A stretch of DNA of 53,697 nt from positions 62,001-115,697 of the forward strand of contig CAUYUJ010000298.1 of NCBI GenBank assembly GCA_963575745.1, written 5' to 3'. Numbering within the stretch: position 1 is the stretch's first letter; each line of letters opens with the position of its first letter. Below, in pieces: positions 13,847 to 44,209 of this stretch. A model generated the notes under the pieces. That model was not told where the DNA came from and searched no databases. It saw only the letters and a list, made by a program, of their open reading frames with translations. Source of the stretch: Prorocentrum cordatum (taxonomy: Eukaryota). The translations under genes were made by a program, and so were the position numbers.

Positions 13847-14416
13847 TCACCATAGCATCATTTCACGATGCAGGCGAAAACACTCACGCACGAAATCGAT
13901 TGAAATGTCTCTCCCATGACGCGAGACTGCGTTGCAAAATGATATCGTATACGCTGCACTCTCGTGGAGGTGTTTGCCCCCACTCACTCTCCCACTGGCC
14001 TCCTCCCAGAACTTCGCCTTGTTTGGATGATCTCTTTTCCACTGGCGCAAGTTCATGGTGCGAATCAACAAACAGGCGGTTGGCATGTTGGTCAGCAAAT
14101 GCGTGCACTTCGCCATGTCATGGCCAAAACAACCCATCCAAGTTGTGATCACCTTCAGTGTACCACTGCTCGCTGCAATCAAGTCCACCATGCTCGGGTG
14201 AGAGAACATCCAAGAGTTAGCTGGCTGCTCGACAATGACTGATGAGGCAACGTAAGAGTTAGGCGCACACAGGTTGCCAGAAGATCGTTTGTGCACAGAC
14301 GAAGGTGAATAATGAACAAGGTGGTCCTGCCGAGACAGAGTAGCAATATAAGGGACGTGGATCGAGCTGAGGACCTCTCTGGCTGGATTGTTCTGGTCCA
14401 AACGTGCGCCTGCCAA
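13847..14416 (-). pseudogene. Degenerate C5 cytosine DNA methyltransferase-like remnant
   Basis: IVEQPANSWMF resembles motif VI (ENP/EQP); TWMGCFGHDMAKCTHLLTN resembles the motif VIII region; GKHLHESAAYTISFC resembles the C-terminal motif. No PC catalytic dipeptide where expected (LVHYSP|SSVHKRS). Confidence 0.5.
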
Positions 14417-14901
14417 CTGGTGGTGGCCACATCATCGTCGGCGTGCCGGGCTTCTGCTCCGACTCCGACAGTTGAGCTCATCGACGGCGCTCTGAGGCTG
14501 GGCAGCGCTCGGAAGCTGTTCGTGCAACTGGGGGCTGTTTCAACCTCAGGGGCCCAAGAACCAGGACCCAAGGGCCCTAGGCCCAATGGAAGCAGGAGGA
14601 CCCAAGGAACCAGCTAGCAAGACAGACAGGAGAAGAGGGAGGAAGGGAAATCATATGGAGTTGAAACAAACAAGGCTTAGAACAACCGAAAGACAAGAGA
14701 AGGAATGAAAACTAAGAGGAGGAAGCCTTTCACGAAGCGAGTCTATGGAGTGAGGAGGCAGTGGTTCAACACCGTGGTAATCCCCCACGGCACACACACG
14801 CCCGGCATGACCCCCAGCACGACCCCCGACACCCCCCCTCCCCAATACACACACGCGAACCCCTAGGCGCCAGAAATATTGATGGCCATGCGGCCGTGCT
14901 C

Positions 14902-21899: not shown

Positions 21900-21966
21900 C
21901 GGGCCCCAGGGACTAGAAAACTATGGGGCTATGCGCGGTAGCGGGGTGCAAGAGGGGTGCCCATCC

Positions 21967-22656
21967 CTAGCAGTTCGCCAGTGGAATGCTGGCCTGCAGC
22001 CCCAAGAATCTCACGTGGAACTCTGGCGCGACGATGACGGCGCCAGCAACCAGTTCGCGGGGAAGAACAGTGTGAGGCAATATCCACAGACGTCCCAAGC
22101 CTGCCCTAGCGCTGACGCCCTCCCCCGGCGACGACAACAGCTCGTGGACAGTTTGGCCAAGCATGTGCCCAGCAGGGTCTGGTGTGGCCATTACGCCAGT
22201 AAGTGCATGCCAAACGTGCCCAGAGATCTTCTGCACTCCAAGAATGTTCTGGCCATCGCGGATGAACCCATTCAGCGCATCTCCTGAAAGAGTTAGTGGC
22301 GGATTCAACATAAAAACATCACGCAGTTCGATAGCAATGTATTTCCGAGCGTTGGCAGAAGCTTTGGCATGAGGCTTGGCCCCACAAACCGAAAACCACG
22401 ATTGCCAAGCTCCTTGCTGACGTTGTTCTTCCTCCGTGGTGCCAACTGGCCTCTCTGGGCACAACGCCACGACGGCCTGGACAATGCGATCGCACTTGCG
22501 AGAAAAAGTCGGGTCGAAACGGTTAACGCCATCGTCAGGCTTCAGCGATACAAGCAAAATGTGGCCGTGCTTACGGCGCCGATCGGGGCGGCGAGGGGGG
22601 CCTCCACTGGGAGCGGCCCCGCTGCCGATCTGCGGTCTGACCGCAGGAGGAAGCAT
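21967..22656 (-). CDS. Possible first exon of the transposase-like gene, or a separate 229-aa hypothetical ORF
   Basis: ATG-initiated ORF immediately upstream on the same strand, protein-like composition; splice join not established. Confidence 0.35.
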   Translation of the reverse strand: MLPPAVRPQIGSGAAPSGGPPRRPDRRRKHGHILLVSLKPDDGVNRFDPTFSRKCDRIVQAVVALCPERPVGTTEEEQRQQGAWQSWFSVCGAKPHAKASANARKYIAIELRDVFMLNPPLTLSGDALNGFIRDGQNILGVQKISGHVWHALTGVMATPDPAGHMLGQTVHELLSSPGEGVSARAGLGRLWILPHTVLPRELVAGAVIVAPEFHVRFLGLQASIPLANC

Positions 22657-25600
22657 GCTTGCGCCAAAATGGCTGAGGCCCCGAGGAACGGCCAGGTCAG
22701 GGTGGAGGGTGGAGGGATAGAAAAGTCCGCTGACCCCATTCGGGGTTTCAAGGCTCGCGGTCCAGCTCCTGAGCAGGTCGTTTTTTATCTTTATTGCAAG
22801 GTCATGGGCCCCTGCCCCCGATATGCTTACGGGTCGTCGTGGGCAACTTCAAAAAAACATTGTCGGCATCATCCCCTGGAACAAACGTTGGAAGATCACT
22901 GCGATGATCTGAAATGTTTGCACAGTGCCTTTTGCCCCTGCCCGATGCGCCTCAAACGCGACAGCGCAGTGGGGGGTGGTCATCGCAGCCCCCCCTTAAC
23001 GTCAGAATTGAAGCGAACGAAAGCGCGCCCATCGTGCGGTGCTAAAGCTCGGTTAACGTATACGTGTTCGGCCGTGTTCATATTTTACACCAGATGTTGC
23101 GACCGTGCGAACGACGGATGGGGGCGGATCAGGCGACCCTAGGTTTTGGATTAGTTAGCGGGTTTCAATGGGGGTCATCCAACGTGCACGCGTTTAACCT
23201 TTGGTTTGGTGGATGTGTCTTGGTGTTTAAATTGCGCCGCACTTGAAGCTGCAAGGATATGGACGGGGTGTGAAGTCCACGTGCCCTTTCGGACGGTGTG
23301 TGGCCACCATCGATCATGCATTTTTTGAAAATTCAACATATTGTAACGCTTGTTTGGGGGGGAGAAATTTCGAACCATTCCAAGTTTTGCCTACCGATGA
23401 TGTTTGTCGGATTGTGGTCAGAAGTGGCTAAGTACTTCGAACCAAGTTCTGTTTCGTTAGCCTGCATGCGAACTTGCGATTTCGTCTTGCTGCCACCCCC
23501 GCTCTGGTGCCGTTTTGGCACGCGCAAAAAATTCGAGTCGACCTTCCGATGCCGCCAATCTAACGGCGGCCCGTCTGTGCCGCGCCGTCGATCCTCGACT
23601 TCTCCTCGACTTTGAGCGGACGCAGGGTCTAGTCGTGCACTCCCTTACTCGAAACCGCCGATCCCGCCCGTGTGCTTTTTAGCAGTAAAAGATACCCGAT
23701 CGAGCTGAGATCAAGATGGTCAGCAGAAATAAGATCAAATATCACGGGAATAAATACAAGATCTCAAACGAATTGAGGAATTCCGAGAACAAAATTTTCA
23801 ACCGACCAAATGTGAGCAAAAGGTCCGTCGAGATTTTTCTTGCCAACTAGCTCTCCAGCGCGCCAGAATTATTGGGCGCCGGCGGTAAACCGTCAACCTT
23901 CGTTACCGCCGGGGGACTCGTAGAGCTTCCTGACAACATATAATGTCGAAAAAAAATTACACTGAAAAAATAGTTTTTCAGCCCAAGCAATTTCAGACCT
24001 CTCCGATGTAACAGCCGAACGCCCCCGATGCTTCTGGATTCTCTTCTGTACGAGCTCTGTAGCTCTCCTACAGCCCGAGTTACGTGCGTAAATCGACAGC
24101 ACCTCTCAAGATTACTCGAATAATACGAATAGTTTCGCAAACCTAGCTCGAGTATCAGACCGAGTTCAGACCTCTGCATGCGACAGGCAGACGCGTCTGA
24201 TGTCTCTGAATCGATTCCTGTGATTACCAGCCCTGCAGCCCCCCCTACAGCCCGAGTTAAGTTCAGGAAACCGACAGCACCTCTCAGGATGACTCGAACA
24301 ATACGAATAGTTTCGCGGAGCTAGTTCGGGCAGCAGACAGAGTTCGAAGCTCTGGATTCGAAAGGCGGACGCACCTGATGTCTCCGAATCGATGCCAGTG
24401 ATTACCAGCCATGCAGCCCCCCCACAGCCCGAGTTGAGTGCAGAGAACCGACAGTATCTCTCAAGATGACTCGAATAATACGAATAGTTTTGCGGACCTA
24501 GCTCGGGCAGCACACCGAGTTCAGAGCTCTGGATTCAACAGACAACGGCCACTGATGATTCTGAATCAGATTCTGTACGTATCAGCTCTGAAGCTGTCCT
24601 GTAGCTCGAGTTAAATACAGAAAGCCGAGAGCGCCTGTCAAGATGACCCGAATACTACGAATAGGTTTGCGGACCTAGCTCGGCTAGCAGACCAAGTTCA
24701 GACCTCTGGGTTCAACAGGCGAACGCGGCTGATCATTCTGACACCGATTAGCTGTGCTTACCAGCTCTGTAGCTGTCCTAAAGCTCGAGTTACCTTGAGA
24801 AAACCGGCAGCGCGTGACAAGATGACCCGAAACGGCCGATCCCGCCTGGACGCTTTTTGGCAGTAAAACGTACCCGATCGAGCTGAGATCAAGATGGCGA
24901 GCGGGAATAAGATCGAATATCACGGGGAAAAATAACAGAGGTCTAACGAATTGTTGAATTTCGAGAACGAAATTTTCAACCGAGCAAAAGTTGTCAAAAA
25001 TGGGCGCCGGCGGTAAACCGTCAACCTTCGTTACCGCCGGGGGAATCGTAGAGCTTCCTGACAACATATAATGTCGAAAAAAATGCTGAAAAAAATATTT
25101 CTTTCAGCCCAAGCAATTTCAGACCTCTCCGATGTAACAGCCCAACGCCCCCGATGCTTCTGGATTGTCTTCTGTACGAGCTCTGTAGCTCTCCTACCGC
25201 CCGATTTACGCGCGTAAATCGACAGCACCTCTCAAGATGACTCGAACAATACGAATAGTTTCGCAAACCTAGCTCGAGTATCAGACCGAGTTCAGACCTC
25301 TCCATGCGACAGGCGGACGCGTCTGATGTCTCTGAATCGATTCCTGTGATTAACAGCCCTGCAGCCCCCCTACAGCCCGAGTTAAGTGCAGGAAACCGAA
25401 GCACCTCTGAGGATGACTCGAACAATACGAAAAGCTTCCTGGCAAAAGTCGTCAAAACGTCCGTCGAGATTTTCCTTGCCAACTAGCTCTCCAGCGCCCC
25501 GGAACTGGGAGCCGGCGGTAAAGCTTATGACAGTTATAATGTTGAAACAAAATTGCAGAGACCCACTAGTTTTTCAGCCCAAGCGATTTCAGACCTCTCG

Positions 25601-26345: not shown

Positions 26346-26631
26346 ACTTGGTAGCGTCGAAAACCCGGAGAGCGAAGAGACCGTCAGAAGGGGGAAATCT
26401 TTCCTCGAGAGCGCTGGGGGCCTCCCCTGCAGCGCTGTCGAAGTGCTGCCAGGAACGCTTCGACACGTGCCTGCACGCGTGGAGGCACACGTGGCAGCGC
26501 CACCGAACCCGCTGCCGGCTCGCCGGAGCTTCTGCGAGGCCTGTGGACCGCCGTGAAGGAGCTCCTGGCGGGCACCACCACCGTCAGGCTTCTAATCTTA
26601 AACCCTTTAGCTCTCAGCGAGCTCTCCGGGA
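26346..26631 (-). mobile_element. 286-bp GC-rich non-autonomous element with asymmetric inverted repeats (family D, one copy here)
   Basis: CCCGGAGAGC (26364-26373) / GCTCTCCGGG (26621-26630); flanks rejoin GAACA|AAGTT of a B element, no TSD. Confidence 0.7.
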
Positions 26632-26708
26632 AAGTTAATATGTCAATGCTCGAGGTAAAAATCTGCTTTCTCAAAATGAATTGTCAAACTGGCGCCGGCG
26701 GTGAATCG

Positions 26709-29700
26709 TCAACCAGGTTTGTTTGTTTGGACTCGCGTTCCCAGCTGAGTGCAGCTGGGCGAGGACCGGTCCCGCAGAAGCACACGGGCAGCGCTGAGCA
26801 GCGCTCCGGCTGCCGACAATTCACATTCTGTGACTGTAGCTCCTTCGAGGAGCCACGCGGCCTCGGCCACATCCCTCCAAACGAGGGGCACGGCACTAGA
26901 AACAGCAAACTCATGCCCAGCAGGGAAGGGGCCCACGGTTCTCGCGGAAGCGATGCCTATCTCACTGGGATTGCACTGAGTATTGATTAAGCCGATCTGA
27001 AGCCAGAAACCACATCCTGATCCTTGCTGGTCAACCCCGCCATCAAAGCCTCCCCTGATAGCGAACGGTAAGAGATAAGTTTCGAATGGATATAGATAAC
27101 AATGAGTTCTGTAGAATGTGCGGCCACATCTGGCCTCATGCGTCAATTCATCCGCTCGTGTATTGTCCTCCCTGAATTCGTGTCTCCATATCTCACGTCC
27201 CAAGGCAGCAGGCCTCAGATTGAAACACGCAGCGAGCTCAAAGGTACAATCAATCATGGCAGCTGTCCTCTTGCAGTAGCCACGATTCTCACATCTCCAT
27301 TTCCCCTGTAGCCAGGAGCAGATAAGTAATGAGTCACCCTTGAACTCAGCAGCAAAACCCTCTGAGGATATATCCCACACAGTCGCACGTTCCTGGATCA
27401 TAGCATAACGTATTGCAAGCTTGGCGGACTCTTTGGGGTCGTACTTGGGGTGCAGAGGGTTGGTCGCGATGTCGACCGCCTCAGCGTCGGCCTTCTCTCG
27501 AGCCTCAGGGGAGCCTCGAGGTCCATTAGGAGAGCCCTTCCAAGACACCACAAAGTAATCATAGACCTTAGTTTTGTTGTATTGTGTAAGGAGTTGCTTC
27601 CATACCTCCAAGAACTGAACCCAATCGCCCCGTACCGACTCCCACCACTTTTCCCCAAAGAACTGAATGTAGGGGAACTGCCAAGACCGACCGCCCACAG
27701 ACACAGGGCCTCCACGAAGCCGCTTGCCCGAACTAGATAAGGCCCTGTTGCCGCGTTGTCGTAGAACCTCTGTTATTGTGTCGCGAGCCGTGACCCAGCC
27801 AACATTGTACATCATAAGCGCACGTCGGGAGTCTCGAAAGGCCCTCCTCCCCTTTGAGACGGCAAGTGGCTCGTCTCTGAGAGTGTGGGCAGCTCCCTCT
27901 CCAGAGGGCATCGGCTGTGAGCGGGCAATGGAACAGGCGACCTGCGAGCAAAGATCCTCCAGCCGCCTCTCCATATCCGTAATCCTCCCCTCCACCTCCA
28001 TCACAGTCGCTGCAGGTACATCCTCCCCCCGTCCATCCGCAAAGCGAACACGTTTAGCACGTTGAGTCGTTGATCCCTCCACCTCAACCTCCGTCCTTGC
28101 CGCCCTGTCCTCCTCCAAAGATAGTAAATATTGCCTCGTGGAGCGCATCATGCCCCAGCTCTTCCAACACAGCATCTGCACAGCCGACGGGAAACCCCCA
28201 TCGCAGAAGATTGTCCTGACTCGTGTCAGTGCAGCTGGCCGCCATACCTCCCACCCCACATCTCCTGGCTTCCTCCTCCCTGACATTCTCAGAAGACACA
28301 TACCCTCGAACGCATGGATAACCCTCACACACTCACTGTCAATCGTGATGGCCTCTGCTGCATATAAAAGACGGCTCTGCACAGTCGATTGATATCGACG
28401 AAACTTCTTCACCAGAGGCAGCGCCCTGCACGTAAAATACTGCACCTGCGCAAAGAATGCCCTTCGGGCCTGCTGGACGCGCTCCTGCACATCCGTGTGG
28501 ATAGAAGTGAAACTTCTGGGAATCTGATACCCCAGCACATTCAAACTCTCAACATGCTTGAAAGGAACAATCCGCGAGCCAATCTGAACCGTGACCGTAT
28601 CAGTGTACTGAGTACCACACACCATCATCTCTAGACTCTCCTCCTTCCACTCCATCCCCCAATCCCTGAGAGCAGTAGTGAAGGCAGTGGCCGCTACCTG
28701 CGCCTCCGATGCTGACTTGGCGGCCAGAAAAATATTGTCAGCCCAGAGAGCATGATTCCAACGTGCATACCGACAATGATCATCATGGCATGGCATCTCG
28801 ACTCCGACACCGCGCTGATCCAGGCGAGCAATCACATCACGCCACATAGCAATAGTGACAATAGTAAACGCGATAGGTGATTCGGTACCCCCAGTACGGA
28901 GCGACCTATCCCACTGCACATTGGGGATTGTCACTCCTTCAAACAGCACCGTGCATGAAGTAGATGAGAGAGGCTCCAATAACGCATACTGTAACCGTGC
29001 ACTGATCCCAAGGGCCGTCATCGCTCTCGAGACTGTCGGCAACGTCACAGCATCGAACGCCCGCTCGATGTCACAGCTGAGGAGCCACGCCGTTTGATCT
29101 CGCCCCCATGTGGAAGCATGTTGTGCAATACATTTCATGGCCGATGAAATCTCCCAGCAACGTCGTCCGCTGGTAAAACCGTAAACCGCCATATCACTCA
29201 TGAAGGGTTCCACACATCGTTCCAGTAAAATCGTCACACACGCGAGATACCACTTGGCCAAGGTATTTCCGACGAGCAGGTTCCTTGTTTGTCGCAATGT
29301 TTCCAGTTTGCTCGTTGTCGGCATAAGTGTTAGGTATACTTCCTGCCATTCCCTTGGCGTCGGGCGAAGCCCGTTGAATATATCAGAGAAAACCTTACCA
29401 ATAGAACGCACTGACCTCCACGAAAGAGACTTGAGAAGTTCAACCGAGATGCCGTCGGGCCCACAGGCCCGTCCTGTTCGGAGCCTGCTCCGCGCCTGCA
29501 GGATAGTAGAGTATGCAATCGTAAGTGTGTTGTCCGAAGAGGCTGTTGATTGAGATGCATGGCGACGCAGTGTGGACACAAGCTCCCGATTGCGGGCTCT
29601 GGAGTCATCACGAGTCATACTCTGCACAGCATATCGCTCCACCTCCTCCGCCCACAGTTCCCTGTCCTCCGTCATCATAGTCGTAGGTCCCATATCCCCT

Positions 29701-30986
29701 CCCCCAGTGTCCGTCACCCTCAACTCCGTCACACGTGTCCTCCTCCCCTTCCTAGATGGTAGCGCCTCCCACTCCACATTCCGTCGGCGATATTCCCGCG
29801 CAAGCGGTCTGATGCGACGTCGAAGGCCCCGAGCCAACGCTCTGTCCTTCCTAGCACGTGCCTCTCTGAGTTGTACCTCCAGCTCGGCATGCTGAGGAGT
29901 CCTACTCGGCGGGAGCCCTCGAGAGTACCTGGGGGCCCTCACCGTGAGGAGCGGTAACGCATGTCCAGCAATCGTTTCAGCAAGACGTTGTGGGGGCACC
30001 GTCGGGATCTGGACGTCCGCCAGGACCTGAAATTGGGCCTCCTCCCGATACGATTGGAACTCTTTGTGGCTTGTGTGGTGGCTAGGGGGGCCTTGATATT
30101 TCGTGACCTGAGGGTTCTGCATATGGAACTCGGCGTAGACACAGGCATGATCCGAGAAGTTGGTAGTCGGGGTCTCTGGGATCCAATCCGTTCGGCATTC
30201 AACCAAGTCACCCTCCCAGGATTGTGGGACCATGAGATAGTCAAGCACTTTTGGCGCAATAGTCTTCGCCCCAGACTTGCGTCGAGCATTATTCGCACGA
30301 TGCACGAAAGTCGGCTGCCGAGAGTACGGCGAGCCAAGAGAATTGACTGCCAGCAAGCGCATCCGACACAGCCACTCCTGCAGCTGAGATCGCCACATGT
30401 CCTCCTCCCACCGTCTATCCTCCGTATCATTCCCATATCCCCTCCCGTCGAGAATCTGCACAGCACCTCCAGTCACCGTGCCTCCTGAACAGGTGATGTC
30501 GGGCGCAAGCTCAACATTAAAATCCCCTGCAATCACAAGCTCACATGTGTATCTGCATTCCTCCTTCCACCTCCGATAAGTTGTTTCGATTGTTTTCAGC
30601 ATCTCAAAAGCCACCTCCAATGAACGATTCTCCGATCTGTTCGGAAAATACGCAGAGACAAGAAAGATACACGGATGACGCAAGCACACAATAGCAAGAC
30701 GAGCATGATTACTCCAAGAGCGAACTATGTTGTGACAAGACTTCCCCCTCAAAGCTATGGAAGCCTTCCTGTCACTTGAATAAACTAGGTGCCAGCCAAG
30801 CAGCTGAATTGAATTGGACGGTAAGTGTTCACACTCCTGTAAACAGAACACTTCACAGCCGCGAGAAAGAAGTGCCCTCATGCAAGCAAATCCCCGATCT
30901 GCTGTAGCCCCTTGTTTCATAAGATTCTGGGTGCCTAGCCTATGCTGGGCTGTGGGGCCACCAGCCCGACTGGCACCTCTGCACCG
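26709..30986 (-). CDS. ORF2: AP-type endonuclease, reverse transcriptase and RNase H-like domain
   Basis: APE motifs GTQN, CLQE, AGDFN, LDY, SDH; RT motifs GPDG, YGF, DIERAFD, TGGTESP, WADN, LG; RNase H motifs GDS, HxxRExNxxAD, FDGG, TxxExE. First ATG at 30920 but the frame is open from 30986. Confidence 0.93.
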   Translation of the reverse strand, partial: RCRGASRAGGPTAQHRLGTQNLMKQGATADRGFACMRALLSRGCEVFCLQECEHLPSNSIQLLGWHLVYSSDRKASIALRGKSCHNIVRSWSNHARLAIVCLRHPCIFLVSAYFPNRSENRSLEVAFEMLKTIETTYRRWKEECRYTCELVIAGDFNVELAPDITCSGGTVTGGAVQILDGRGYGNDTEDRRWEEDMWRSQLQEWLCRMRLLAVNSLGSPYSRQPTFVHRANNARRKSGAKTIAPKVLDYLMVPQSWEGDLVECRTDWIPETPTTNFSDHACVYAEFHMQNPQVTKYQGPPSHHTSHKEFQSYREEAQFQVLADVQIPTVPPQRLAETIAGHALPLLTVRAPRYSRGLPPSRTPQHAELEVQLREARARKDRALARGLRRRIRPLAREYRRRNVEWEALPSRKGRRTRVTELRVTDTGGGDMGPTTMMTEDRELWAEEVERYAVQSMTRDDSRARNRELVSTLRRHASQSTASSDNTLTIAYSTILQARSRLRTGRACGPDGISVELLKSLSWRSVRSIGKVFSDIFNGLRPTPREWQEVYLTLMPTTSKLETLRQTRNLLVGNTLAKWYLACVTILLERCVEPFMSDMAVYGFTSGRRCWEISSAMKCIAQHASTWGRDQTAWLLSCDIERAFDAVTLPTVSRAMTALGISARLQYALLEPLSSTSCTVLFEGVTIPNVQWDRSLRTGGTESPIAFTIVTIAMWRDVIARLDQRGVGVEMPCHDDHCRYARWNHALWADNIFLAAKSASEAQVAATAFTTALRDWGMEWKEESLEMMVCGTQYTDTVTVQIGSRIVPFKHVESLNVLGYQIPRSFTSIHTDVQERVQQARRAFFAQVQYFTCRALPLVKKFRRYQSTVQSRLLYAAEAITIDSECVRVIHAFEGMCLLRMSGRRKPGDVGWEVWRPAALTRVRTIFCDGGFPSAVQMLCWKSWGMMRSTRQYLLSLEEDRAARTEVEVEGSTTQRAKRVRFADGRGEDVPAATVMEVEGRITDMERRLEDLCSQVACSIARSQPMPSGEGAAHTLRDEPLAVSKGRRAFRDSRRALMMYNVGWVTARDTITEVLRQRGNRALSSSGKRLRGGPVSVGGRSWQFPYIQFFGEKWWESVRGDWVQFLEVWKQLLTQYNKTKVYDYFVVSWKGSPNGPRGSPEAREKADAEAVDIATNPLHPKYDPKESAKLAIRYAMIQERATVWDISSEGFAAEFKGDSLLICSWLQGKWRCENRGYCKRTAAMIDCTFELAACFNLRPAALGREIWRHEFREDNTRADELTHEARCGRTFYRTHCYLYPFETYLLPFAIRGGFDGGVDQQGSGCGFWLQIGLINTQCNPSEIGIASARTVGPFPAGHEFAVSSAVPLVWRDVAEAAWLLEGATVTECELSAAGALLSAARVLLRDRSSPSCTQLGTRVQTNKPG

Positions 30987-30989
30987 TCA
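30930..30989 (-). promoter_or_regulatory. Candidate stop-codon readthrough cassette (UGA-CGG, 9-nt spacer, stem-loop)
   Basis: Minus strand: TGA CGGTGCAGA GGTGCC-AGTC-GGGCTG-GTGGCCCCA-CAGCCC-AGCATA-GGCT-A-GGCACC; ORF1 and ORF2 are in the same frame. Confidence 0.6.
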
Positions 30990-32303
30990 CACCCTGCCGG
31001 CAAGACTCGTAACAAATGTGTCGTATGTAGTCGTCACACCGCTTCGCATAAGTACACCCTCCCAGATCTCGCGGTCCACTGTCCACCCCGTATTGATACG
31101 AAAGGATGCCAGTTCCACGGGTCGATGCTGAGGGTCCTGCGGCTTGGTCCACATTGTGCTCCGTCCGTTGGGTCCCGATCCTGTCTCCCCCCTGATCTCC
31201 ATAGCCTCACTGTTGGTACACTCGCGGTATGTCCCATAGAAGCGTCCCACAGCCCCGATATGATCACGTTTCCAAGGTGGGGCCTCTATGCGTACGCGGA
31301 CCCGACTGGGTCGTTGTAACATGCCCTGGAACATGCTGTCATAATCTGGAGGTGACCTCGAAACCTGAGCCGCATTCCTTTGGGGATTCGGAGTTAAAGC
31401 ATCATCAAAAGCACGCTTCACGTTGTATAATCTCGAAGAGTCGGTTCCTACAATGAATTTGATTTTGATCGTACTCAACATCATTCTACTTCCATTCATA
31501 CGTAATGTGCCCTCGTAGTCGATCCTAGCTTCATCCTCTGCTGCGATGGCCGTCTTCAAATTAGTGATGAATTGTGCAGCGTCCGTGTCTCTCATCATAC
31601 TGGCCGAACGTGTAACCGCTGTCCCATTCCAGTCTGTCCAGCCTGTGAGCTCCACATAGCTGGGACTGAAACTGGAGGGTCCTGAGAGTCCTGGTGGGCC
31701 CCCTCCGTAGGAAGGTGCCGTAGTCGAGGCTGCACCTGATATCACACTGGGGTTCTTCTTGAGATCCTGCATCTGTCGTTCCAAATTGTTCATCCTGATG
31801 TCGGAGGCCTCCTGACGCTTCGAGATACTCTGAATATCGGCCCTGGTTTCGACGTTTTCTTGTTGCCTAACTTTGCTCTCAAGCACGTTGAGCTCCGCGA
31901 AGGCCTTGAACCAGGATGGGGCCTCGTCCGAGACCACACTGAGTTTCTTTCGCTTCTCCTCGAGTTCTCCCAAGAGTGCCTCGTGAGGACCGTTGACACG
32001 ATGTTTGACATTTCGTTGGGCGTCGTCGCTAACACCCTGCATACCCTGACGCTCCCCAGCACCTTCAGGGACAACAGCCGCTTGGGCCGCCGCCTGTTGT
32101 GCCTCCGTGGGCATACCTGGGGGTCCCCCTAGAGCACCTTGTGGAGCTGGGCCTCTAGGAACAACAGGAGCGCCTCCAGATCCTTGACCTCCAGGACTGA
32201 CCTGACCTATTGGAACCCCTCCCGCACGCCCTCCGTTGGTTGTAGCTCCCGCCACAGCTGCGTTGGAATAAGTCTGCATCATATTCATGAGTCCTGTATT
32301 CAT
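30987..32303 (-). CDS. ORF1 (gag-like/RNA-binding) of the LINE
   Basis: G/P/Q-rich N-terminus, heptad-like coiled coil (IQSISKRQEASDIRMNNLERQMQDLKK), then a globular region. First ATG at 32303, but the frame is open to the element 5' end. Confidence 0.8.
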   Translation of the reverse strand: MNTGLMNMMQTYSNAAVAGATTNGGRAGGVPIGQVSPGGQGSGGAPVVPRGPAPQGALGGPPGMPTEAQQAAAQAAVVPEGAGERQGMQGVSDDAQRNVKHRVNGPHEALLGELEEKRKKLSVVSDEAPSWFKAFAELNVLESKVRQQENVETRADIQSISKRQEASDIRMNNLERQMQDLKKNPSVISGAASTTAPSYGGGPPGLSGPSSFSPSYVELTGWTDWNGTAVTRSASMMRDTDAAQFITNLKTAIAAEDEARIDYEGTLRMNGSRMMLSTIKIKFIVGTDSSRLYNVKRAFDDALTPNPQRNAAQVSRSPPDYDSMFQGMLQRPSRVRVRIEAPPWKRDHIGAVGRFYGTYRECTNSEAMEIRGETGSGPNGRSTMWTKPQDPQHRPVELASFRINTGWTVDREIWEGVLMRSGVTTTYDTFVTSLAGRV

Positions 32304-35300
32304 ATTCACAAATGAAGGTGGGACAACACAATGGCTATCACTATCTGGTGTGGAGTCGGCAGTATTCAATCTCCCGTCCAATGGAAGGTCACGTACAATC
32401 TGCTCGGTATCCTGAACTTGCCTCTTCCGAGATGCCCTCTCAACAGCAGAATCTGGTCTCTGTCCGTAATCCTGTGAGTACTGCAAATATGGTACAGTCG
32501 GGGAAATATCACTGAAAAGTCGTGCCCGTCCGTCTTTGCACACACGACAAACAAAACAACAATTACAGCACACAAAGCAGGCGGCCTGGCTTGCCTGGAA
32601 GATGCCGTACTCGTCGATGGCAGCGATGGCCGCCGCGCCGCTTCCCCGCGGCGCCGACACCCCCTGAGCTCCTGTGGGATCCAGGAGCCCTAGAGCCGAG
32701 ATGTCTTGAGCCGGGAACCTCGTAGAGCTCCTTGTATCCGTGAGAAAGCTCAGGATCAAAGCAAGAGCTTTTGGGAGCTTTTCTACAAAAACTTCAAGTT
32801 TAGATTTTTCAGAGTCAACATGAAGTCGGTTCCTCCAAGTGAACTGGCACTAAAAATGGCTCTAGAGGACTGAGCTGCTCAGGAAACAAAGTTTATTTAT
32901 ATGTCAATGCTCGGAGTAAAAATCTGCTTTCTCAAAATGAATTGTCAAATATCCTTCAATTTTTTGCAACATCACCCAAAAGTTACCACTTTGTCCTTTC
33001 TGGCCGGGTCGACCAACTAGCTCCACCCCGCGCCGGAATTCCTCTAGCTCATCGATGCCGAAGAGCTCTACGAGGTATATCTTTCAAAAAATCGCAAAAC
33101 CATCCAAAAGTTGTCCCATTCTCCGCCTCAGCCGGGTGCGCCAACTGGCGCCGGCGGTGAACGGTCAACCTGGTCACCGCCGGGAACCTCGTAGAGCTCC
33201 TAGCACGCGTAAGAGTGCTCAGCATCAAAAGAGAGGGCTTCTGGAAGCATTTCTCAAAAAAAGAGAAAACCTGATTTTTTTATGTCGACATGAAGTTGGT
33301 TGCGCCAAGTGTTTTGATAGTAAAAGTGAATCTAGAGAGCTCACATTAAGACGGAGAGGCCCTCATAGTCGTTCACAGGTGCGAAAAATCTGCTTTCTCA
33401 AAATAAATGGTCAAATATCTTTGAAATATTTGCAAAACCACCCAAAAGTTATCACACTGGGCGCCGGCGGTAAACCGTCAACCTTTCTTACCGCCGGGGG
33501 ACTCGTAGAGCTTCCTGAGAATATATAAGGTTTCCAGACCTCTCGGATGCAACAGCCGAACGCCCCCGATACTTCTGGATTGTCTTCTGTACGAGCTCTC
33601 TAGCTCTCCTACAGCCCGAGTTACGTGCGCAAATTGACAGCACCTCTCATGATGACTCGAACAATACGAAGAGTTTGGCAAACATAGCTCGAGTATCAGA
33701 CCGAGGTCAGACCTCTGCATGCGACAGGCGGACGTGTCTGATGTCTCTGAATCGATTCCTGTGATTAACAGCCCTGCAGCCCCCCCTATAGCCTCAGTTA
33801 AGTGCAGAAAACCGACAGCATCTCTCAGGATTCGAACAACACGAATAGTTTTACGGACCTAGTTCGGGCAGCAGACAGAGTTCGGAGCTCTGGATTCGAA
33901 AGGCGGACGCGCCTGATGTCTCCGGATCGATTCCAGTCTCGACCAGCCACGCAGCCCCCCCACAGTCCGAGTTAAGTGCAGAGAACCGACAGCATCTCTC
34001 CAGATGACTCGAACAATACAAATAGTTTCGGGATTCTAGATCGGGCAGCAGACCGAGTTCAGAGCTCTGGATTCAACAGACAACGGCCACTGATAAATCT
34101 GAACCAGATCCTGTACGTATGAGCTCTTTAGCTGTCCTGTAGCTCGAGTTAAGTACAGAAAACCGAGAGCGTCTGTCAAGATGACTCGAATAATACGAAT
34201 AGGTTTGCGCACCTAGCTCGGCTAGCAGACCGATTTCAGACTTCTGGATTCAACACGCGAACGCGCCTGATCATTCTGAGTGGATTAGCTGTGCTTACCA
34301 GCTCTGTAGCTGTCCTGAAGCTCGAGTTATCTTGAGAAAACCGACACCGCGTGACAAGATGACTCGAAATGGCCGATCCCGCCGAAGCGCTTTTTGGCAG
34401 TAAAAGGTACCCGATCGAGCTGAGATCAAGATGGCGAGCGGGAATAAGATCGAATATCACGGAAAGAAATATTAGAGCTCTAACGAATTGTTGAATTTCA
34501 AGCACAAAATTTTCAACCGACCAAAAGTCAGCAAAAGGTCGGTCGATACTTTTCTTGCCAACTGGGCGCCGGTAAATGTCAACCTTTGTTACCGCCGGGG
34601 ACTCGTAGAGCTTCCTGACAACATGTAATGTCGAAAAAAAAACACAGAAAAAATAGTTTTCAGCCCAAGCAGACCTCTCGGATGCAACAGCCGAACGCCC
34701 CCGATGCTTCTGGATTGTCTTCTGCACGAGCTCTGTAGCTCTCTTACAGCCCGAGTTACGTGCGTCAATCGAGAGCACCCATTGGCAAACCTCGCTCGAG
34801 TATCAGACCGAGTTCAGACCTCTGCATACGCGTCTGATATCAGCTAAGTGCAGGAAACCCACAGCACCTCTCAGATTATATTGAACAATACAATAGTTTT
34901 ACGGACTTAGTTCGGACAGCAGACAGAGTTCGAAGCTCTGGATTCGACAGACAGACGCGCCTGATGTCTCCGAATCGATTCCAGTGATTACCAGCCATGC
35001 AGCCCCCCTACAGCCCAAGTTTAGTGAAGAGAACCGACAGCATATCTCAGGATGACTCGAACAATACGAATAGTTTCGCGATAGATCGGGCAGCAGACCA
35101 AGTTCAGAGCTCTGGATTCGACAGACAAACGCAACTGATAATTCTGAATCAGATTCTGCACGTATTGGCTCTGGAGCTGTCCTCAGGCTCGAGTTGAGAA
35201 CAGAAACTGAGAGCGTCTGTTAAGATGAATCGAGTAATACGAATAGGTTTACGGACCTAGCTCGGCTAGCAGACCGAGTTCAGACGTCTTGCTTCAACAG

Positions 35301-40113: not shown

Positions 40114-41162
40114 ACTGGGCGCCGGCGGTAAACCGTCAACCTTGGTGACCGCCGGGAGACTCGTAGAGCTTCCTAGCTCGACTTAAGTTGAGCAAATCGA
40201 CAGCACCTACCAATATTCCGACTCTTAGTGAATATTTTTTGACCTCTGAATGCGACAGGCGGACGCGTCTGATGTCTGCGAATCGACTCCTGTCATTACC
40301 AGCCCTGCAGCCCCCCTACAGCCCGAGTGAAGTGCAGAAAACCGACAGCATCTCTCAGGATGACTCGAACAATACGAATAGTTTCGCGGACCTAGTTCGA
40401 GCAGCAGACAGAGTTCAGAGCTCTGGATTCCAGAGGCGGACGCACCTGATGTCTTCGAATCGATTCCTGTGACCACAAGCACTGTAGTCCCTCTCAGCGC
40501 GAGTTTTCTGCAGGAAAACCGAGAGCACTTCTGAAGATGACTCGACCAGTACGAATATTTTCGCGATTCTAGATCGGGTAGCAGACCGAGTTCAGAGCTC
40601 TGGATTCGACAGACAAATGCAACTGATAATTCTGAATCGGTTTCTGTAAATATCAGCTCTGTAGCTGTTCTACAGCTGGAGTTAAGTACAGAAAACCGAG
40701 AGTTTCTGTCCAGATGACTCGAATAATACGAATAGGTTTCCAGACCTAGCTCGGCTAACAGACCGAGTTCAGACCTTTGAATTGAACAGGCGAACGCGCC
40801 TAATCATTCTACATCGATTAGCTGTGCTTACGAGCTCTGTAGCTGTCCTAAAGCTCGAGTTATATTCAGAAAACCGTTAGCGCGTATCAAGATGACTCAA
40901 AACGGCCGATCCCGCCACAGTGCTTTTCGATAGTAATATTCACCCGATCGAGCTGAGATCAAGATGGCAAGCGGGAATCAGATCGAATATCACGGGAAAA
41001 AATTAGAGCTCTAACGAATTGTTAAATTTCGAGGAAAAAAAATTCAACCAACCAAAAGTCACCCAAAGTTCCGTCGAGATTTTTCTTGCCAACTAGCTCT
41101 CCAGCGCGCCGGAATTACTCTTAGCTTCCAGCAATAACTTGCTCAGGGAAGCTCTACGAGTT
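40114..41162 (-). mobile_element. Complete family A' element abutting the next head
   Basis: ACTGGGCGCC...GGAAGCTCTACGAGTT followed directly by ACTGGGCGCC at 41163. Confidence 0.85.
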
Positions 41163-43077
41163 ACTGGGCGCCGGCGGTAAACCGTCAACCTTTCTTACCG
41201 CCGGGGGACTCGTAGAGCTTCCTGACAATATATGATGTCGAAAAAAATTGCAGAGAACGAATAGTTTTTCAGCCCAAGCGATGTCAGACCTCTCGATGCA
41301 ACAGCCGAACGCCTCCCGATGCTTCTGGATTGTCTTCTGCACGAGCTCTCTAGCTCTCCTACAGCCCCAGTTAAGTGCGTCAATCGACAGCATCTCTCAA
41401 GATGATTCGAACAAAACGAATAGTTTGGCAAACCCAGCTCGATTATCAGACCCAGTTCAGACCTCTCAATTCGACAGGCAGACGCGTCTGATGTGTCCGA
41501 ATGGATTCCTGTGATTACCAGCCCTGCAGCCCCCCTACAGCCCGATTTAAGTGTAGAAAGCCGACAGCATCTTTCAGGATGACTCGAACAATACGAACAG
41601 TTTCGCGGACCGAGTTCGGGCAGGAGACCGAGTTCCGAGCTCTGGATTCCACAGGCGGACGCGACTGATGTCTCCAAATCGATTGCTGTCACCACCAGCA
41701 CTCTAGCCTCCCTACAGCCCAAGTTAAGTGCACAAAACCGACAGCACTTCTCAAGGTGACTCGAACAATACGAACAGTTTCGCGATTATGGATCGGGCAG
41801 CAGACCGAGTTCAGAGCTCTGGATTCAACAGACAAACGCGACTGATGATTCTGAATAAGTTTCTGTAAGTACCAGCTCTGTAGCTGTCCTATAGCTCGAG
41901 TTAAGTACAGAAAACCGAAAGCGCCTGTCAAGATGACTCGAATAATACGAATAGGTTTGCGGACCTAGCTCGGCTAACAGACCGAGTTCAGACCTCTGGG
42001 TTCAACAGGCGAACGCGCCTGATCATTCTGCATCGATTAGCTGTGCTTACCAGCTCTGTAGCTGTCCTGAAGCTCGAGTTATCTTGATAAAACCGAGAGC
42101 GCGTATCAAGATGACTCGAAACGGCCGATCCCGCCTGCCTGCTTTCTGGCAGTAAAACTTACCCGATCGAGCTGAGATCAAGATGGTGAGCGGGAATAAT
42201 ATCAAATATCATGGGAAAAAATACTAGAGCTCTAACGAATGGTCAAATCTTAAGAACAAAATTTTCAACCGACCAAAAGTCACCAAAAGGTCCGTCGAGA
42301 TTTTCCTTGCCAACTAGCTCTCCAGCGCCCCGGAACTGGCGCCGGCGGTGAACCGTCGACCTGGTCACCGCCGGGAACCTCGTAGAGCTCCTAGCATGCG
42401 TGAGAGTGCTCAGCGTCGAAAGAGAGGGCTTCTGGAAGAATTTTTCGAAAAAGAGAAAACATGATTTTTTCGATGTCGACCTGAAGTTGGTTCCGCCAAG
42501 TGTTTTGGTAGTAAAAAGACATCTAGAGAGCTCATATTCAGACAGAGAGGCCATCATATTCGTTTACAGGTGCGGAAAATCTGCTTTCTCAAAATAAATG
42601 GTCAAATATCTTTCAAATATTCCCAAAACCACCCAAAAGATGCCACATTGTCCGCCTCGGCCGGGGCCAACTGGCGCCGGCGGTGAACCGTCAACCTGGT
42701 CACCGCCGGGAACCTCGTAGAGGTCCTCTTACTAGTAAGAGTGCAGAGAATCGACACAGAATGAAAAAATATAGATTTTTCGAAAATCTTGAAATTCGAT
42801 GTTTTCGATGTTCAGATTCGCTCAGTTCCTGGAAGTCAACTCATGCAAAAATGCATCGAGAGAGCTGAGCTGCGATCAGAGAGGAGTTCATATGCCAATG
42901 CTCGGCGTAAAAATCTGCTTTTTCGAAATAAATGGTGAAATATCTTTCAAATTTTCGGAAAACCACGCAAAAGTTGCCACATTGTCCGCCTCGGCCGGCT
43001 GGGCCAGCTAGCTCCACCCCGCGCCGGAATTCCTCTAGCTCATCGACTGGGCACCGGCGGTAAACCGTCAACCTTGG

Positions 43078-43236
43078 TTTTTCGTTTCGCGGACACACGG
43101 GCCCTAGGGCCCCGTCCAGTCCGAGGCGGGCGGGCACGCCAAACGCGGGCCACCGAGCGGCTAAGGCGAAAGCCTCACCACGCCAAGCACGTGGGGGGCG
43201 GCTTCGGCGGTAGCCTCTGGCAGCTCTTAGAGCTGC
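43078..43236 (-). mobile_element. About 160-bp structured retroposed insert (SINE-like, or 5'-truncated LINE) in the Helentron hairpin loop
   Basis: Follows CCGTCAACCTTGG; minus-strand 3' end CGAAACGAAAAA; target resumes at about GCCG/GGGAG-CTCGTAGAGC with a few target bases lost. Confidence 0.7.
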
Positions 43237-44209
43237 CGAGGGAGCTCGTAGAGCTTCCTAGCTCGACTTAAGTTGAGAAAACCGACAGCACCTACCAACG
43301 TTCCAACTTATAGAAGATATTTTTTGACCTCTGAATGCGACAGGCAGACGCGTCTCATGTCTGCGAATCGACTCCTGTCATTACCAGCGCTGGAGCCCCC
43401 CCCCCCCCCTACAGCCCGAGTGAAATGCAGAAAACCGACAGCATCTCTCAGAATGACTCGAACAATACAATAGATTCGCAGACCTAATTCGGGCAGCAGA
43501 CCGAGTTCCGAGCTCTGGATGCGACAGACGGACGCGCATGATCTTTCAAATCGATTCATGTGAGAACCAGCACTGTAGCATGCTCTCAGCGGAAGTTGAG
43601 TGAAGAAAACCGAGAGCATCTCTCAAGATGACTCGACCAATACGAATAATTTCGCGAGTCTGGATCGGGCAGCTGACCGAGTTCAGGGCTCTGGATTCGA
43701 CAGACAAACGCAACTGACGATTCTGAATCAGTTACTGTAAACATCAGCTTTCTAGCTGTGATACAGCTCGAGTTTAGTACAGAAAACCGAGAGTTTGAGT
43801 CAAAATGACTCGCATACTACGGATAGGTTTGCGAACCTAGCTCGGCTCACAGACCGAGTTCAGACCTCTGGATTGAACAGGCGAACGCGCCTAATCATTC
43901 TGCATCGATTAGCTGTGCTCACTAGCTCCGTAGCTGCTCTACAGCTCGAGATATGTTCAGAAAACCGTCAGCGCATACCAAGATGACTCGAAACGGCCGA
44001 TCCCGCCAGAGTGCTTTTCGATAGTAATATTCACCCGATCGAGCTGAGATCAAGATGGATAGCGGGAATAAGATCGAATAGCACGGGAAACAATACTAGA
44101 GCTCAAACGAATTGTCAAATTTCGAGAACCAAATTTTCAACTGACCAAAAGTCAGCAAAAGTTCCGTCGAGGTGTTTCTTGCCAACTAGCTATCCAGCGC
44201 GCCGGAATT

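What the first reader, a model, noticed from the sequence alone, without database searches (positions are those of the whole stretch)
26688..32720. Non-LTR retrotransposon that appears to target the terminal hairpin loop of a rolling-circle (Helentron-like) element
Seen: the 6-kb LINE's 3' tail joins directly after CGTCAACCAGG in the hairpin loop of a B element, and the target resumes at GCCGGGAACC with 4-5 nt lost and no TSD. A different short retroposed element sits at the equivalent position, in the same orientation, in an A' hairpin at 43078. Known: APE-type LINEs can be sequence-specific (R1, SART/TRAS; Xenopus Tx1 targets a DNA transposon). Inference: a site-specific family parasitising the most conserved motif of a high-copy rolling-circle element. 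Because the host's termini and subTIRs survive, the LINE might also be carried along as cargo. I know of no described case, but two events is a small sample.
Basis: partly seen in the sequence, partly recalled or inferred. Interest (0 to 1): 0.9.

Follow-up and report, generated by a model that had tools for sequence, protein, structure and literature searches.

The report
Hairpin-targeting LINE in algal repeat arrays
An intact 6-kb LINE retrotransposon, and relatives of it found elsewhere, sit at exactly the same bond of a conserved DNA hairpin carried by a very abundant repeat, so this looks like a new target for a site-specific retrotransposon.

Summary
A 5,992-nt LINE lies on the minus strand at 26718-32709. 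It has ORF1 and a 1,425-aa ORF2 with endonuclease, reverse-transcriptase and RNase H-like parts. It splits one hairpin of a repeat that carries 44 such hairpins in the window: 42 are intact and 2 are interrupted. Both interruptions are at the same bond (after CCAGG/CCTTGG), in the same orientation, with about 5 nt of the 3' arm lost and no target duplication.

No genome is held for this window, so I used protein databases as a stand-in for flanks. ORF2 has no stop inside the element, so gene calls on other contigs read into the flank. Two further copies of the same family (P0171, P0181) and one sister family at about 65% identity (P0183) run from tails of differing length into the same hairpin. 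They continue into different repeat units, so these are independent insertions. One rearranged relative (P0178) does not.

The hairpin recurs in a second organism with an invariant loop and compensatory stem changes. The host repeat has Helentron/HINE-like anatomy (14-bp subterminal inverted repeats, 177-bp central repeats, terminal stem-loop). No Rep/helicase gene or verified element termini were found.

Verdict: probably a site-specific LINE with a new kind of target, on a small sample.

The parts
26691..26717 (+). Left part of the interrupted target hairpin: 5' arm CCGGCGGTGA plus the spacer up to CCAGG. Its last base supplies the 3'-OH that primed cDNA synthesis (inferred).
26718..32709 (-). 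Full-length non-LTR retrotransposon (LINE), 5,992 nt, with both ORFs open.
26718..26729 (-). 3' tail, (CAAA)3.
   Evidence: tail length differs in P0171 and P0181
26709..30986 (-). ORF2, 1,425 aa. The frame stays open through the tail. The last two codons (Pro-Gly) and the TGA stop (26709-26711) are encoded by the target hairpin.
30117..30986 (-). APE-type (exonuclease III-like) endonuclease region of ORF2, about residues 1-290.
   Evidence: clade profile A3 vs PDB: exonuclease III/AP-endonuclease chains E = 8e-7 to 7e-4, and human L1 ORF2p aligned from its residue 6; Pfam Exo_endo_phos only E = 0.0085, below cut-off; motifs located
28521..29222 (-). Reverse-transcriptase domain (Pfam RVT_1, ORF2 residues 589-822). 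Motif C reads WADN.
26997..27359 (-). RNase H-like region of ORF2, about residues 1210-1330.
   Evidence: profile A3 vs PDB RNase H chains 3u3g_D (E = 2.8e-4) and 4h8k_A (E = 5.7e-3); no Pfam hit for the window protein itself
30987..32303 (-). ORF1 from its first Met (438 aa, no known domain). Its TGA stop (30987-30989) is in the same frame as ORF2.
32710..32729 (+). Target resumes here: the rest of the 3' arm (GCCGG), GAAC, then the motif CTCGTAGAGCT that follows almost every hairpin.
43050..43078 (+). Left part of the second interrupted hairpin (A'-type, ...CAACCTTGGT).
43079..43234 (-). Second insert, 156 nt, 69% GC, A-rich 3' end on the minus strand. Unrelated to the LINE and unclassified.
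   Evidence: no Rfam match at E<=1; alignment score 39 vs shuffle mean 33, sd 5
43235..43255 (+). Target resumes after the second insert (GCCGAGGGAGCTCGTAGAGCT).
42673..42714 (+). Reference intact B-type hairpin (the empty-site form).
   Evidence: DNA fold -14.3 kcal/mol, z = -3.2
40160..41208 (+). Model A-type host unit: motif CTCGTAGAGCT (40160-40170), 177-bp central repeats (40280-40898), inverted copy AGCTCTACGAG (41150-41160), then the terminal hairpin (41167-41208).

Best explanation
The element at 26718-32709 (minus strand) is an intact, L1-like non-LTR retrotransposon. It has ORF1 and an ORF2 with APE endonuclease, reverse transcriptase and an RNase H-like domain, and it ends in a (CAAA)n tail. 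Its lineage inserts site-specifically into one bond of a conserved hairpin carried by a very abundant, tandemly arrayed, Helentron/HINE-like repeat.

Proposed mechanism:
1. The element's endonuclease nicks the strand that reads 5'-CGTCAACC(W/TT)GG^T-3', at the 3' edge of the spacer between the two 10-nt arms.
2. The freed 3'-OH primes reverse transcription on the RNA's (CAAA)n tail (target-primed reverse transcription).
3. The other strand is cut 5 nt further on, so TCACC/TTACC is lost and no target duplication forms.

The 156-nt insert at 43079-43234 would be another RNA copied in by the same machinery.

Shown directly: both junctions of both window events; the same 3' junction in three other contigs; the domain content of ORF2.

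Inferred: that the specificity resides in the endonuclease; the order of the nicks; the trans-mobilisation of the short insert; and the rolling-circle nature of the host repeat.
For: (1) In the window, 2 of 44 hairpins are interrupted. Both breaks are at the same bond and orientation, and the target resumes at GCCG in both. The chance estimate is 1.5e-6. BLAST of the LINE against the window finds no other copy, and no other RT appears among 68 other ORFs of 110 aa or more.

(2) ORF2 has no stop inside the element, so gene calls on other contigs read into the flank. I inspected 33 related proteins (10, 23).
- P0181 (same 90% cluster as P0171, 98% identical to the window in alignment A1) ends ...QTNKNQVDGLPPAPSLVG. 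Its last 14 residues match translations of the window's A-type hairpins plus flank at 10-11 of 14.
- P0183 (sister family, 65% identity in A1) ends ...KQTNKPRLTVYRQRPVTRRASP. This matches the hairpin and flank of the window unit at 41180 at 14 of 17.
- P0171 (97%) ends ...QTKQKPG, that is, a longer tail followed by the same Pro-Gly that the hairpin encodes in the window copy.
The tail reads QTNK, QTKQK and QTNKN in the three same-family copies. The flanks beyond the hairpin differ (APSLVG vs PVTRRAS). These are therefore separate insertions, not copies of one.

(3) The window flanks rejoin into a complete repeat unit with only 5 nt missing. The hairpin is therefore target, not part of the LINE.

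(4) The clade profile matches human L1 ORF2p over EN plus RT (E = 9e-29), exonuclease III/APE enzymes (E = 8e-7) and RNase H (E = 2.8e-4). RVT_1 scores E = 1e-12.

(5) The target is a conserved structure. The loop is unchanged in 4 contigs of a second organism, while the stem reads CGAGCGG/CCGCTCG instead of CCGGCGG/CCGCCGG, which is two compensatory pairs. DNA folds give z = -3.2, -3.0 and -4.1 for three of four tested hairpins, and z = +0.2 for the fourth, the degenerate hairpin at 44214.

(6) The family is present in many samples: 20 of 24 listed runs from 14 studies hold part of it. In run X20, 1,894 of 5,407 laid contigs are at least 99% alike.
Against: - The sample is small: 5 readable LINE junctions plus one unclassified insert.
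- P0178, a relative at 58% identity in A1 with a rearranged N-terminus, reads from its tail into ...AGRIIFFFIALRSF.... This matches no hairpin translation (7 of 28).
- P0171 gives only two flank residues, and I cannot see whether its gene ends at a stop or at the contig end.
- The best-covered X1 contig over the LINE 3' end stops aligning at 26717 with 5 unaligned letters. Its flank may be something else.
- No record bridges the 3' junction by the tool's 31-letter rule.
- Proteins found by similarity to this copy's C-terminus may be biased towards copies that keep the frame open.
- Endonuclease specificity is untested.
- A hotspot created by the DNA structure itself would predict the same junctions.
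- The Pfam endonuclease hit for the window protein alone is below its cut-off.
- No Rep/helicase was found for the host repeat.
Confidence: 0.74

Rival explanations
1. The hairpin is a structural hotspot. It is nicked or extruded as a cruciform by something other than the LINE, for example by the host repeat's own replication or transposition enzyme or by cellular structure-specific nucleases. Any reverse-transcribing element can then prime there. On this view the specificity belongs to the target, not to the LINE's endonuclease.
For: Two unrelated inserts (the LINE and the 156-nt element, with no similarity between them) use the same bond. The site lies at a helix discontinuity of a stable DNA hairpin. 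The hairpin is conserved as a structure across organisms, which suggests that an enzyme works on it.
Against: The LINE clade keeps an APE-type endonuclease region (motifs). Two subfamilies at about 65% identity both use the site, as expected for an inherited property of the element. Both strands break at fixed positions in both window events. Only 2 of 44 hairpins are occupied, and no other retroelement type was seen.
Confidence: 0.13
2. There was one ancestral insertion. The LINE-plus-hairpin composite was then multiplied together with the repeat, by array amplification or by transposition of the host element with the LINE as cargo. The repeated junction would then not reflect targeting.
For: The host repeat multiplies in head-to-tail arrays. 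Nearly all hairpins from 3.9 to 53 kb share one orientation. Copies of a composite would share the junction.
Against: The junctions differ in tail length (three versions in one family), in hairpin subtype (B-type in the window, A-type in P0181 and P0183) and in the flank beyond the hairpin. A sister LINE family has the same junction. The 156-nt insert is a second, different occupant. The window holds only one LINE copy among 44 hairpins.
Confidence: 0.07
3. The two window events coincide by chance, and the database matches reflect only how abundant the repeat is in these genomes.
For: The repeat is extremely abundant and fills most of the window, so random insertions would often fall inside it.
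Against: Landing in the repeat is likely. Landing on the same bond, in the same orientation, in 4 of 5 LINE junctions plus a second element is not (1.2e-3 per event).
Confidence: 0.03

Closest known systems
Tx1L in Tx1D of Xenopus
   Same: An APE-type, L1-superfamily LINE whose copies sit at one position inside another, DNA-type repeated element. This is a transposon living in a transposon.
   Different: The host organism here is different: the nearest named proteins come from the green alga Pyramimonas. The target here is a conserved stem-loop of a Helentron/HINE-like repeat. Insertion gives a 5-nt target deletion rather than a duplication. Relationship to the Tx1 group was not tested by a tree.
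R1, TRAS and SART: APE-type LINEs specific for 28S rDNA or telomeric repeats (for R1Bm I saw only the abstract of PMC1919474 in the listing; the rest is recalled)
   Same: A sequence-specific APE endonuclease cuts both strands at fixed positions of a multicopy target. Junctions are precise and orientation is fixed.
   Different: The target here is not a host gene or telomere but the hairpin of another repeat. ORF2 carries an RNase H-like domain, and its best PDB relative is L1 ORF2p. Specificity of the enzyme has not been shown here.
Plant L1 elements with an archaea-like RNase H domain (recalled; the phrase was found only in the texts of the papers listed, none of them opened)
   Same: Endonuclease-RT-RNase H order in an L1-like ORF2 within the green lineage. 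The RNase H hits in PDB are 3u3g and 4h8k.
   Different: Those elements are not known to me as site-specific. This clade's RT motif C reads ADN rather than ADD in 9 of 10 aligned members. Membership was not tested by phylogeny.
Helentrons and their non-autonomous HINE/DINE-1 derivatives; Helitron2 (passages read in PMC4067079, and PMC3627910)
   Same: This comparison concerns the host repeat. It has 11-14-bp subterminal inverted repeats, one next to the presumed 5' end and one 30-104 nt upstream of a terminal stem-loop. It has central tandem repeats. Compensatory changes keep the hairpin.
   Different: No Rep/helicase(-endonuclease) partner was found. There are no T-runs and no TT target at the presumed boundary. 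Every hairpin is directly followed by the next unit's inverted repeat, so ends and empty sites cannot be defined. The loop sequence is conserved across organisms, which is not a described Helentron feature in the passages I read.

Membership tests
Non-LTR retrotransposon (LINE), APE type | Reverse-transcriptase domain of the LINE type | tested here: met
   Pfam RVT_1 E = 1.1e-12. PDB best hits are L1 ORF2p and R2 RTs.
Non-LTR retrotransposon (LINE), APE type | N-terminal exonuclease III/APE-like endonuclease | tested here: met
   Clade profile A3 matches exonuclease III/AP endonucleases at E = 8e-7 to 7e-4 and L1 ORF2p from its residue 6. The window protein alone scores only E = 0.0085 against Pfam, below cut-off. 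Motifs CLQECE, GDFNV and FSDHAC are present; their catalytic role is recalled, not tested.
Non-LTR retrotransposon (LINE), APE type | No LTRs, a simple-repeat or A-rich 3' tail, and junctions typical of target-primed reverse transcription | tested here: met
   The (CAAA)3 tail abuts the target, and tail length varies among copies. There is a 5-nt target deletion and no terminal repeats.
Non-LTR retrotransposon (LINE), APE type | 5'-truncated copies in the genome | tested here: inconclusive
   Contig depths are higher at the 3' end, but the tool states that such depths cannot rank parts of a gene. No genome is held.
Site-specific LINEs (functional class: R1, TRAS/SART, Tx1 and the like) | Most copies lie at the same nucleotide position and orientation of one target sequence | tested here: met
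   4 of 5 readable LINE-clade 3' junctions, plus one unrelated insert, are at the same bond. This is a small sample, not a census.
Site-specific LINEs (functional class: R1, TRAS/SART, Tx1 and the like) | The endonuclease cleaves the target sequence specifically | not testable with these tools
   Needs a nicking assay with the purified domain.
L1 superfamily / Tx1 group | Phylogenetic placement of the RT within the group | not tested
There is only the best PDB similarity to L1 ORF2p. The nearest full-length relatives (P0002, P0003, 32% identity) are unnamed metagenome proteins.
Helentron / HINE (host repeat) | 12-15-bp subterminal inverted repeats, one near the 5' end and one tens of bp from the 3' end | tested here: met
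   CTCGTAGAGCT(TCC) follows 41 of 42 intact hairpins at 28-29 nt from the start of the loop core. Its reverse complement lies 30-104 nt upstream of at least 10 hairpins. Criteria come from passages of PMC4067079.
Helentron / HINE (host repeat) | Short palindrome or stem-loop close to the 3' end | tested here: inconclusive
   A 10-bp-stem hairpin is present. The 3' end itself cannot be located because every hairpin abuts the next unit.
Helentron / HINE (host repeat) | Insertion into TT with T-runs at the boundaries, confirmed by empty sites | tested here: not met
   The presumed boundary reads CCGGGAAC/CTCG, with no T-run. No empty site could be identified, since no genome is held.
Helentron / HINE (host repeat) | Autonomous partner that encodes Rep/helicase (with or without endonuclease) and has the same ends | tested here: not met
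   No Pfam domain of this kind in 68 window ORFs of 110 aa or more outside the LINE. The rest of the genome could not be searched.
Helentron / HINE (host repeat) | Central tandem repeats (frequent, not obligatory) | tested here: met
   Tandem arrays of 175-178-bp units with 2-4 copies each occur inside A-type units between 33 and 53.7 kb (15 rows, some overlapping).

The most novel reading that the evidence does not exclude
The LINE may not find its site by reading duplex sequence alone. It may exploit the hairpin as a structure or as a pre-made nick. The stem-loop would be the origin-like site at which the host repeat's own rolling-circle enzyme cuts or at which a cruciform extrudes, and the LINE (with its short dependant) would prime reverse transcription on that 3'-OH. 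That would couple retrotransposition to the replication or transposition of a rolling-circle element. A further possibility is that the element relies on its target even for gene expression: in the window copy and in P0171, the stop codon of ORF2 is supplied by the hairpin's TGA.
Probability: 0.1. Interest if true: 0.85.

Novelty: new variant of a known kind. Interest (0 to 1): 0.62.

Why it matters
Site-specific LINEs are the natural models for targeted, RNA-templated DNA insertion. Each new target shows another way an APE endonuclease can be made specific.

Here the target is neither a host gene nor a telomere. It is the most conserved, structured motif of another very abundant mobile or satellite-like element. 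This would be a clear case of one selfish element specialising on another, a safe haven that multiplies by itself, in a poorly studied and repeat-rich group of green algae.

The recognised site is at least about 11 nt long and sits in a stable hairpin. That makes the question of sequence versus structure recognition directly testable with one recombinant domain.

The hairpin repeat is also unclassified. It is conserved across organisms with an invariant loop and covarying stem.

My literature searches (listings only, apart from the two Helitron papers read in passages) showed no report of a LINE targeting a Helitron or Helentron hairpin. That does not prove there is none.

Tried and rejected
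- **Earlier findings:** four look-ups returned nothing.
- **JGI metagenome contigs:** the 30-nt pattern from the LINE 3' end gave 0 matches. A protein-profile scan gave 1 locus (L001), which ends inside ORF2 and has no 3' flank.
- **Viral contigs:** the hairpin pattern gave 0 matches. The LINE profile gave 0 confirmed matches out of 59 candidate stretches.
- **Prokaryote genome contigs:** the hairpin pattern gave 7 loci. Five are chance matches without a second arm. Two (L004, L007) are eukaryote-like contigs inside a bacterial MAG. That MAG holds no relative of ORF2.
- **Public runs:** all four laid runs are contigs. No record bridges the 3' junction by the 31-letter rule. X8 record 25 reaches only 24 nt into the hairpin and then runs into letters that look to me like a sequencing adapter. 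X1 record 1 stops at 26717 with 5 unaligned letters. The joints 2671x to 32710 are simply intact hairpins of other units. The 3'-to-5' depth gradient cannot be used as copy-number evidence, per the tool's own warning. Most loose-end rows were not shown (163 hidden), so the absence of a listed loose end at 26718 means nothing.
- **First word-indexed protein search with whole ORF2:** nothing.
- **Other proteins inspected:** P0175 and P0182 end before the tail. P0173, P0174 and P0036 and their cluster mates that keep the reference frame stop inside their own elements. P0198 and P0199 read into their own 3' UTR with an uninterpretable end. None of these informs on flanks.
- **Rfam:** no match on the 156-nt insert at E<=1, and none on the window plus L004/L007 at gathering thresholds. 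ARAGORN found no tRNA.
- **The 156-nt insert:** not similar to the LINE.
- **ESM Atlas:** nothing usable for ORF1 or for a 577-aa ORF of the 13.7-kb block.
- **Rejected idea, the hairpin half is part of the LINE's own 3' end:** the two window flanks rejoin into a complete unit, and flanks beyond the hairpin differ among copies.

Full report
**What is there**

The window is 51% GC and looks eukaryotic. No genome is held for it.

On the minus strand, 26718-32709 is a 5,992-nt non-LTR retrotransposon.
- ORF1 runs from its first Met at 32303. It is 438 aa with no Pfam family. It ends in TGA at 30987-30989.
- ORF2 (1,425 aa) follows in the same frame.
- ORF2 has Pfam RVT_1 at E = 1e-12.
- I built a profile of ORF2 with its database relatives (A3) and searched PDB with it. 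It matches human L1 ORF2p across endonuclease and RT (E = 9e-29), exonuclease III/AP endonucleases at the N-terminus (E = 8e-7 to 7e-4), and RNase H chains near the C-terminus (E = 2.8e-4).
- Alone, the window's N-terminal region reaches only E = 0.0085 against Pfam Exo_endo_phos, below the cut-off.
- The element ends in (CAAA)3.
- Both ORFs are open. In run X20, 1,894 of 5,407 laid contigs are at least 99% alike. The family therefore looks young.

**The target**

The window is largely made of head-to-tail arrays of repeat units of about 0.3 kb (B type) and 1 kb (A type). Each unit carries a hairpin with arms CCGGCGGT(G/A)A and T(C/T)ACCGCCGG around a 13-14-nt spacer that holds the core AACCGTCAACC.
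- The core occurs 46 times at up to 1 mismatch. Two hits are spurious, so there are 44 hairpins.
- The exact arm pattern gave 9 matches against 0 in 100 shuffles.
- As single-stranded DNA the B-type hairpin folds into 10 bp, a bulge, 2 bp and an 8-nt loop (-14.3 kcal/mol, z = -3.2).
- 42 hairpins are intact and 2 are interrupted.

**The two window events**

At 26717/26718 the + strand passes from ...CGTCAACCAGG into the reverse complement of the LINE tail. At 32709/32710 it passes from the LINE's 5' end into GCCGGGAACC... Compared with intact sites, TCACC is missing and nothing is duplicated.

At 43078/43079 an A'-type hairpin (...CAACCTTGG) is followed by a 156-nt, 69%-GC insert whose minus strand ends in an A-rich run. 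The target resumes at GCCGAGGGAGCTCG, again at GCCG. This insert has no similarity to the LINE (score 39 against shuffle mean 33, sd 5). It has no Rfam match.

The chance that two random insertions both hit this bond in this orientation is about 1.5e-6. One refinement: the bond lies at the 3' edge of the inter-arm spacer, between the inner 2 bp and the outer stem, not in the unpaired loop.

**Independent copies**

A feature of the element gave a substitute. ORF2 has no stop codon of its own. In the window copy the frame runs through the tail and ends ...QTNK-PG-stop, where Pro-Gly-TGA is encoded by the hairpin. Gene calls on other contigs therefore translate the flank.

I searched with the last 230 and 110 residues, listed cluster members, and inspected 33 proteins. 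Four extend past the tail.
- **P0171** (97% identical) ends ...QTKQKPG. This is a longer tail followed by the same Pro-Gly.
- **P0181** (same cluster) ends ...QTNKNQVDGLPPAPSLVG. This is the window's A-type hairpin and upstream flank read in another frame (10-11 of 14 residues identical to window translations).
- **P0183** (a sister family, 65% identical in alignment A1) ends ...KQTNKPRLTVYRQRPVTRRASP. This is the hairpin read in the third frame, plus the flank of the unit type at 41180 (14 of 17).
- **P0178** (58% identical, with a rearranged N-terminus) reads into ...AGRIIFFF..., which matches no hairpin (7 of 28).

So 4 of 5 readable LINE-clade junctions are at the same bond and orientation. 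They have three different tails within one family, two hairpin subtypes and different outer flanks. This argues for repeated, independent insertion. It argues against amplification of a single composite and against the hairpin being part of the LINE. The latter is also excluded because the window flanks rejoin into a complete unit.

The weak points:
- the sample size;
- P0178;
- the two-residue evidence for P0171;
- a possible bias towards copies with an open frame;
- a metagenome contig (X1) that diverges right after the tail.

**Who and where**

The only named relatives are transcriptome proteins of the green alga Pyramimonas sp. CCMP1952 in EukProt (P0172 at 83% and P0179 at 89% identity). 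The nearest full-length relatives (32% identity) are unnamed metagenome proteins. Parts of the LINE occur in 20 of 24 listed runs from 14 studies, labelled marine, freshwater, estuary and plankton metagenomes, plus three coded organisms.

**The host repeat**

- The motif CTCGTAGAGCT follows 41 of 42 intact hairpins, 28-29 nt from the start of the loop core.
- Its reverse complement lies 30-104 nt upstream of at least 10 hairpins. In A units it extends to 14 bp.
- A units carry 175-178-bp tandem repeats of 2-4 copies.
- A unit such as 40160-41208 therefore reads: inverted repeat, central repeats, inverted repeat, stem-loop. This is the layout given for Helentron-derived HINE/DINE-1 elements (passages of PMC4067079) and is close to Helitron2 (passages of PMC3627910).

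Against membership:
- No Rep/helicase or any other domain was found in 68 further ORFs.
- There is no T-run or TT site at the presumed boundary.
- Every hairpin abuts the next unit, so ends and empty sites are undefined.

The hairpin itself is clearly functional. Four eukaryote-like contigs (43% GC) mis-binned in a bacterial MAG carry 19 exact loop cores. Their stems read CGAGCGG/CCGCTCG where the window has CCGGCGG/CCGCCGG. That is two compensatory pairs around an unchanged loop. That MAG holds no relative of the LINE.

**Mechanism and rivals**

The best reading (0.74) is ordinary target-primed reverse transcription by a sequence-specific APE endonuclease.
1. The strand reading CAACC(W/TT)GG^T is nicked.
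2. cDNA synthesis is primed on the (CAAA)n tail.
3. A second nick falls 5 nt away, which gives the 5-nt deletion.

The short insert would be a passenger RNA. Only the junctions and the domain content are shown; the rest is inferred.

The main rival (0.13) is that the hairpin is a structural or enzymatic hotspot used by any reverse-transcribing element. Amplification of one composite (0.07) and pure chance (0.03) fit the data poorly.

**Comparison and novelty**

In function, this resembles R1/TRAS/SART (precise, two-strand, APE-mediated targeting) and above all Tx1L in Tx1D (a LINE specialised on another transposon). Those comparisons are recalled, not tested. Phylogenetic membership in any LINE clade was not tested.

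Two literature searches (listings only) showed no report of a LINE that targets a Helitron or Helentron hairpin.

I rate it a new variant of a known kind, with interest 0.62. It is a well-defined new target class with a testable question of sequence versus structure recognition. It rests on five junctions and an unclassified host repeat.

Noticed in passing
window 26709-26729 and 30987-30989: ORF2 has no stop codon inside the element. In the window copy, and apparently in P0171, the stop is the TGA of the target hairpin. In copies with other tail lengths the frame reads on through the hairpin (P0181, P0183). ORF1 and ORF2 are in one frame, separated only by a TGA.
   Followed up: partly
window 28734-28745 (ORF2 residues 748-751): RT motif C reads WADN where reverse transcriptases usually carry two aspartates (recalled). 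9 of 10 aligned clade members, down to 22% identity, have ADN, and one has ADD. This looks like a clade trait, not decay of this copy.
   Followed up: partly
L004 and L007, and G001 contigs C80, C84, C99, C118 (L009-L020): Contigs binned in a bacterial MAG are eukaryote-like (43% GC). They are full of the same hairpin module in head-to-tail arrays, with compensatory stem changes and an identical loop. This is likely mis-binned DNA of a second alga or protist.
   Followed up: partly
window about 9940-23646: A 13.7-kb block interrupts an A-type unit. It is flanked by a 225-nt direct duplication of the unit's end (9685-9909 vs 23647-23871, 91.6% identity). It holds many long minus-strand ORFs (up to 577 aa) with no Pfam or Atlas match. 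Its nature is unknown.
   Followed up: partly
window 26347-26634: The B unit just left of the LINE carries an extra 288-nt GC-rich segment that is absent from the neighbouring unit. Joints in public contigs skip it. This is an insertion or subfamily difference that is not in a hairpin.
   Followed up: no
window 32510: In three runs, a few contigs leave the window sequence at 32510 and share another continuation (loose ends). Some other copies therefore have a different 5' end from the 199 nt present here (32511-32709).
   Followed up: no
window 3860-3913 and 50661-50749: Hairpins are in minus orientation from 139 to 3870 and in plus orientation from 3903 to 53196, apart from one at 50661. The array thus has head-to-head inversion points where two hairpins face each other within 33-70 nt.
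   Followed up: no
window 43224-43255: The last 11 nt of the 156-nt insert (CTCTTAGAGCT) resemble the motif CTCGTAGAGCT that follows 21 nt later in the target. The exact 5' boundary of that insert is therefore uncertain by a few nucleotides.
   Followed up: no
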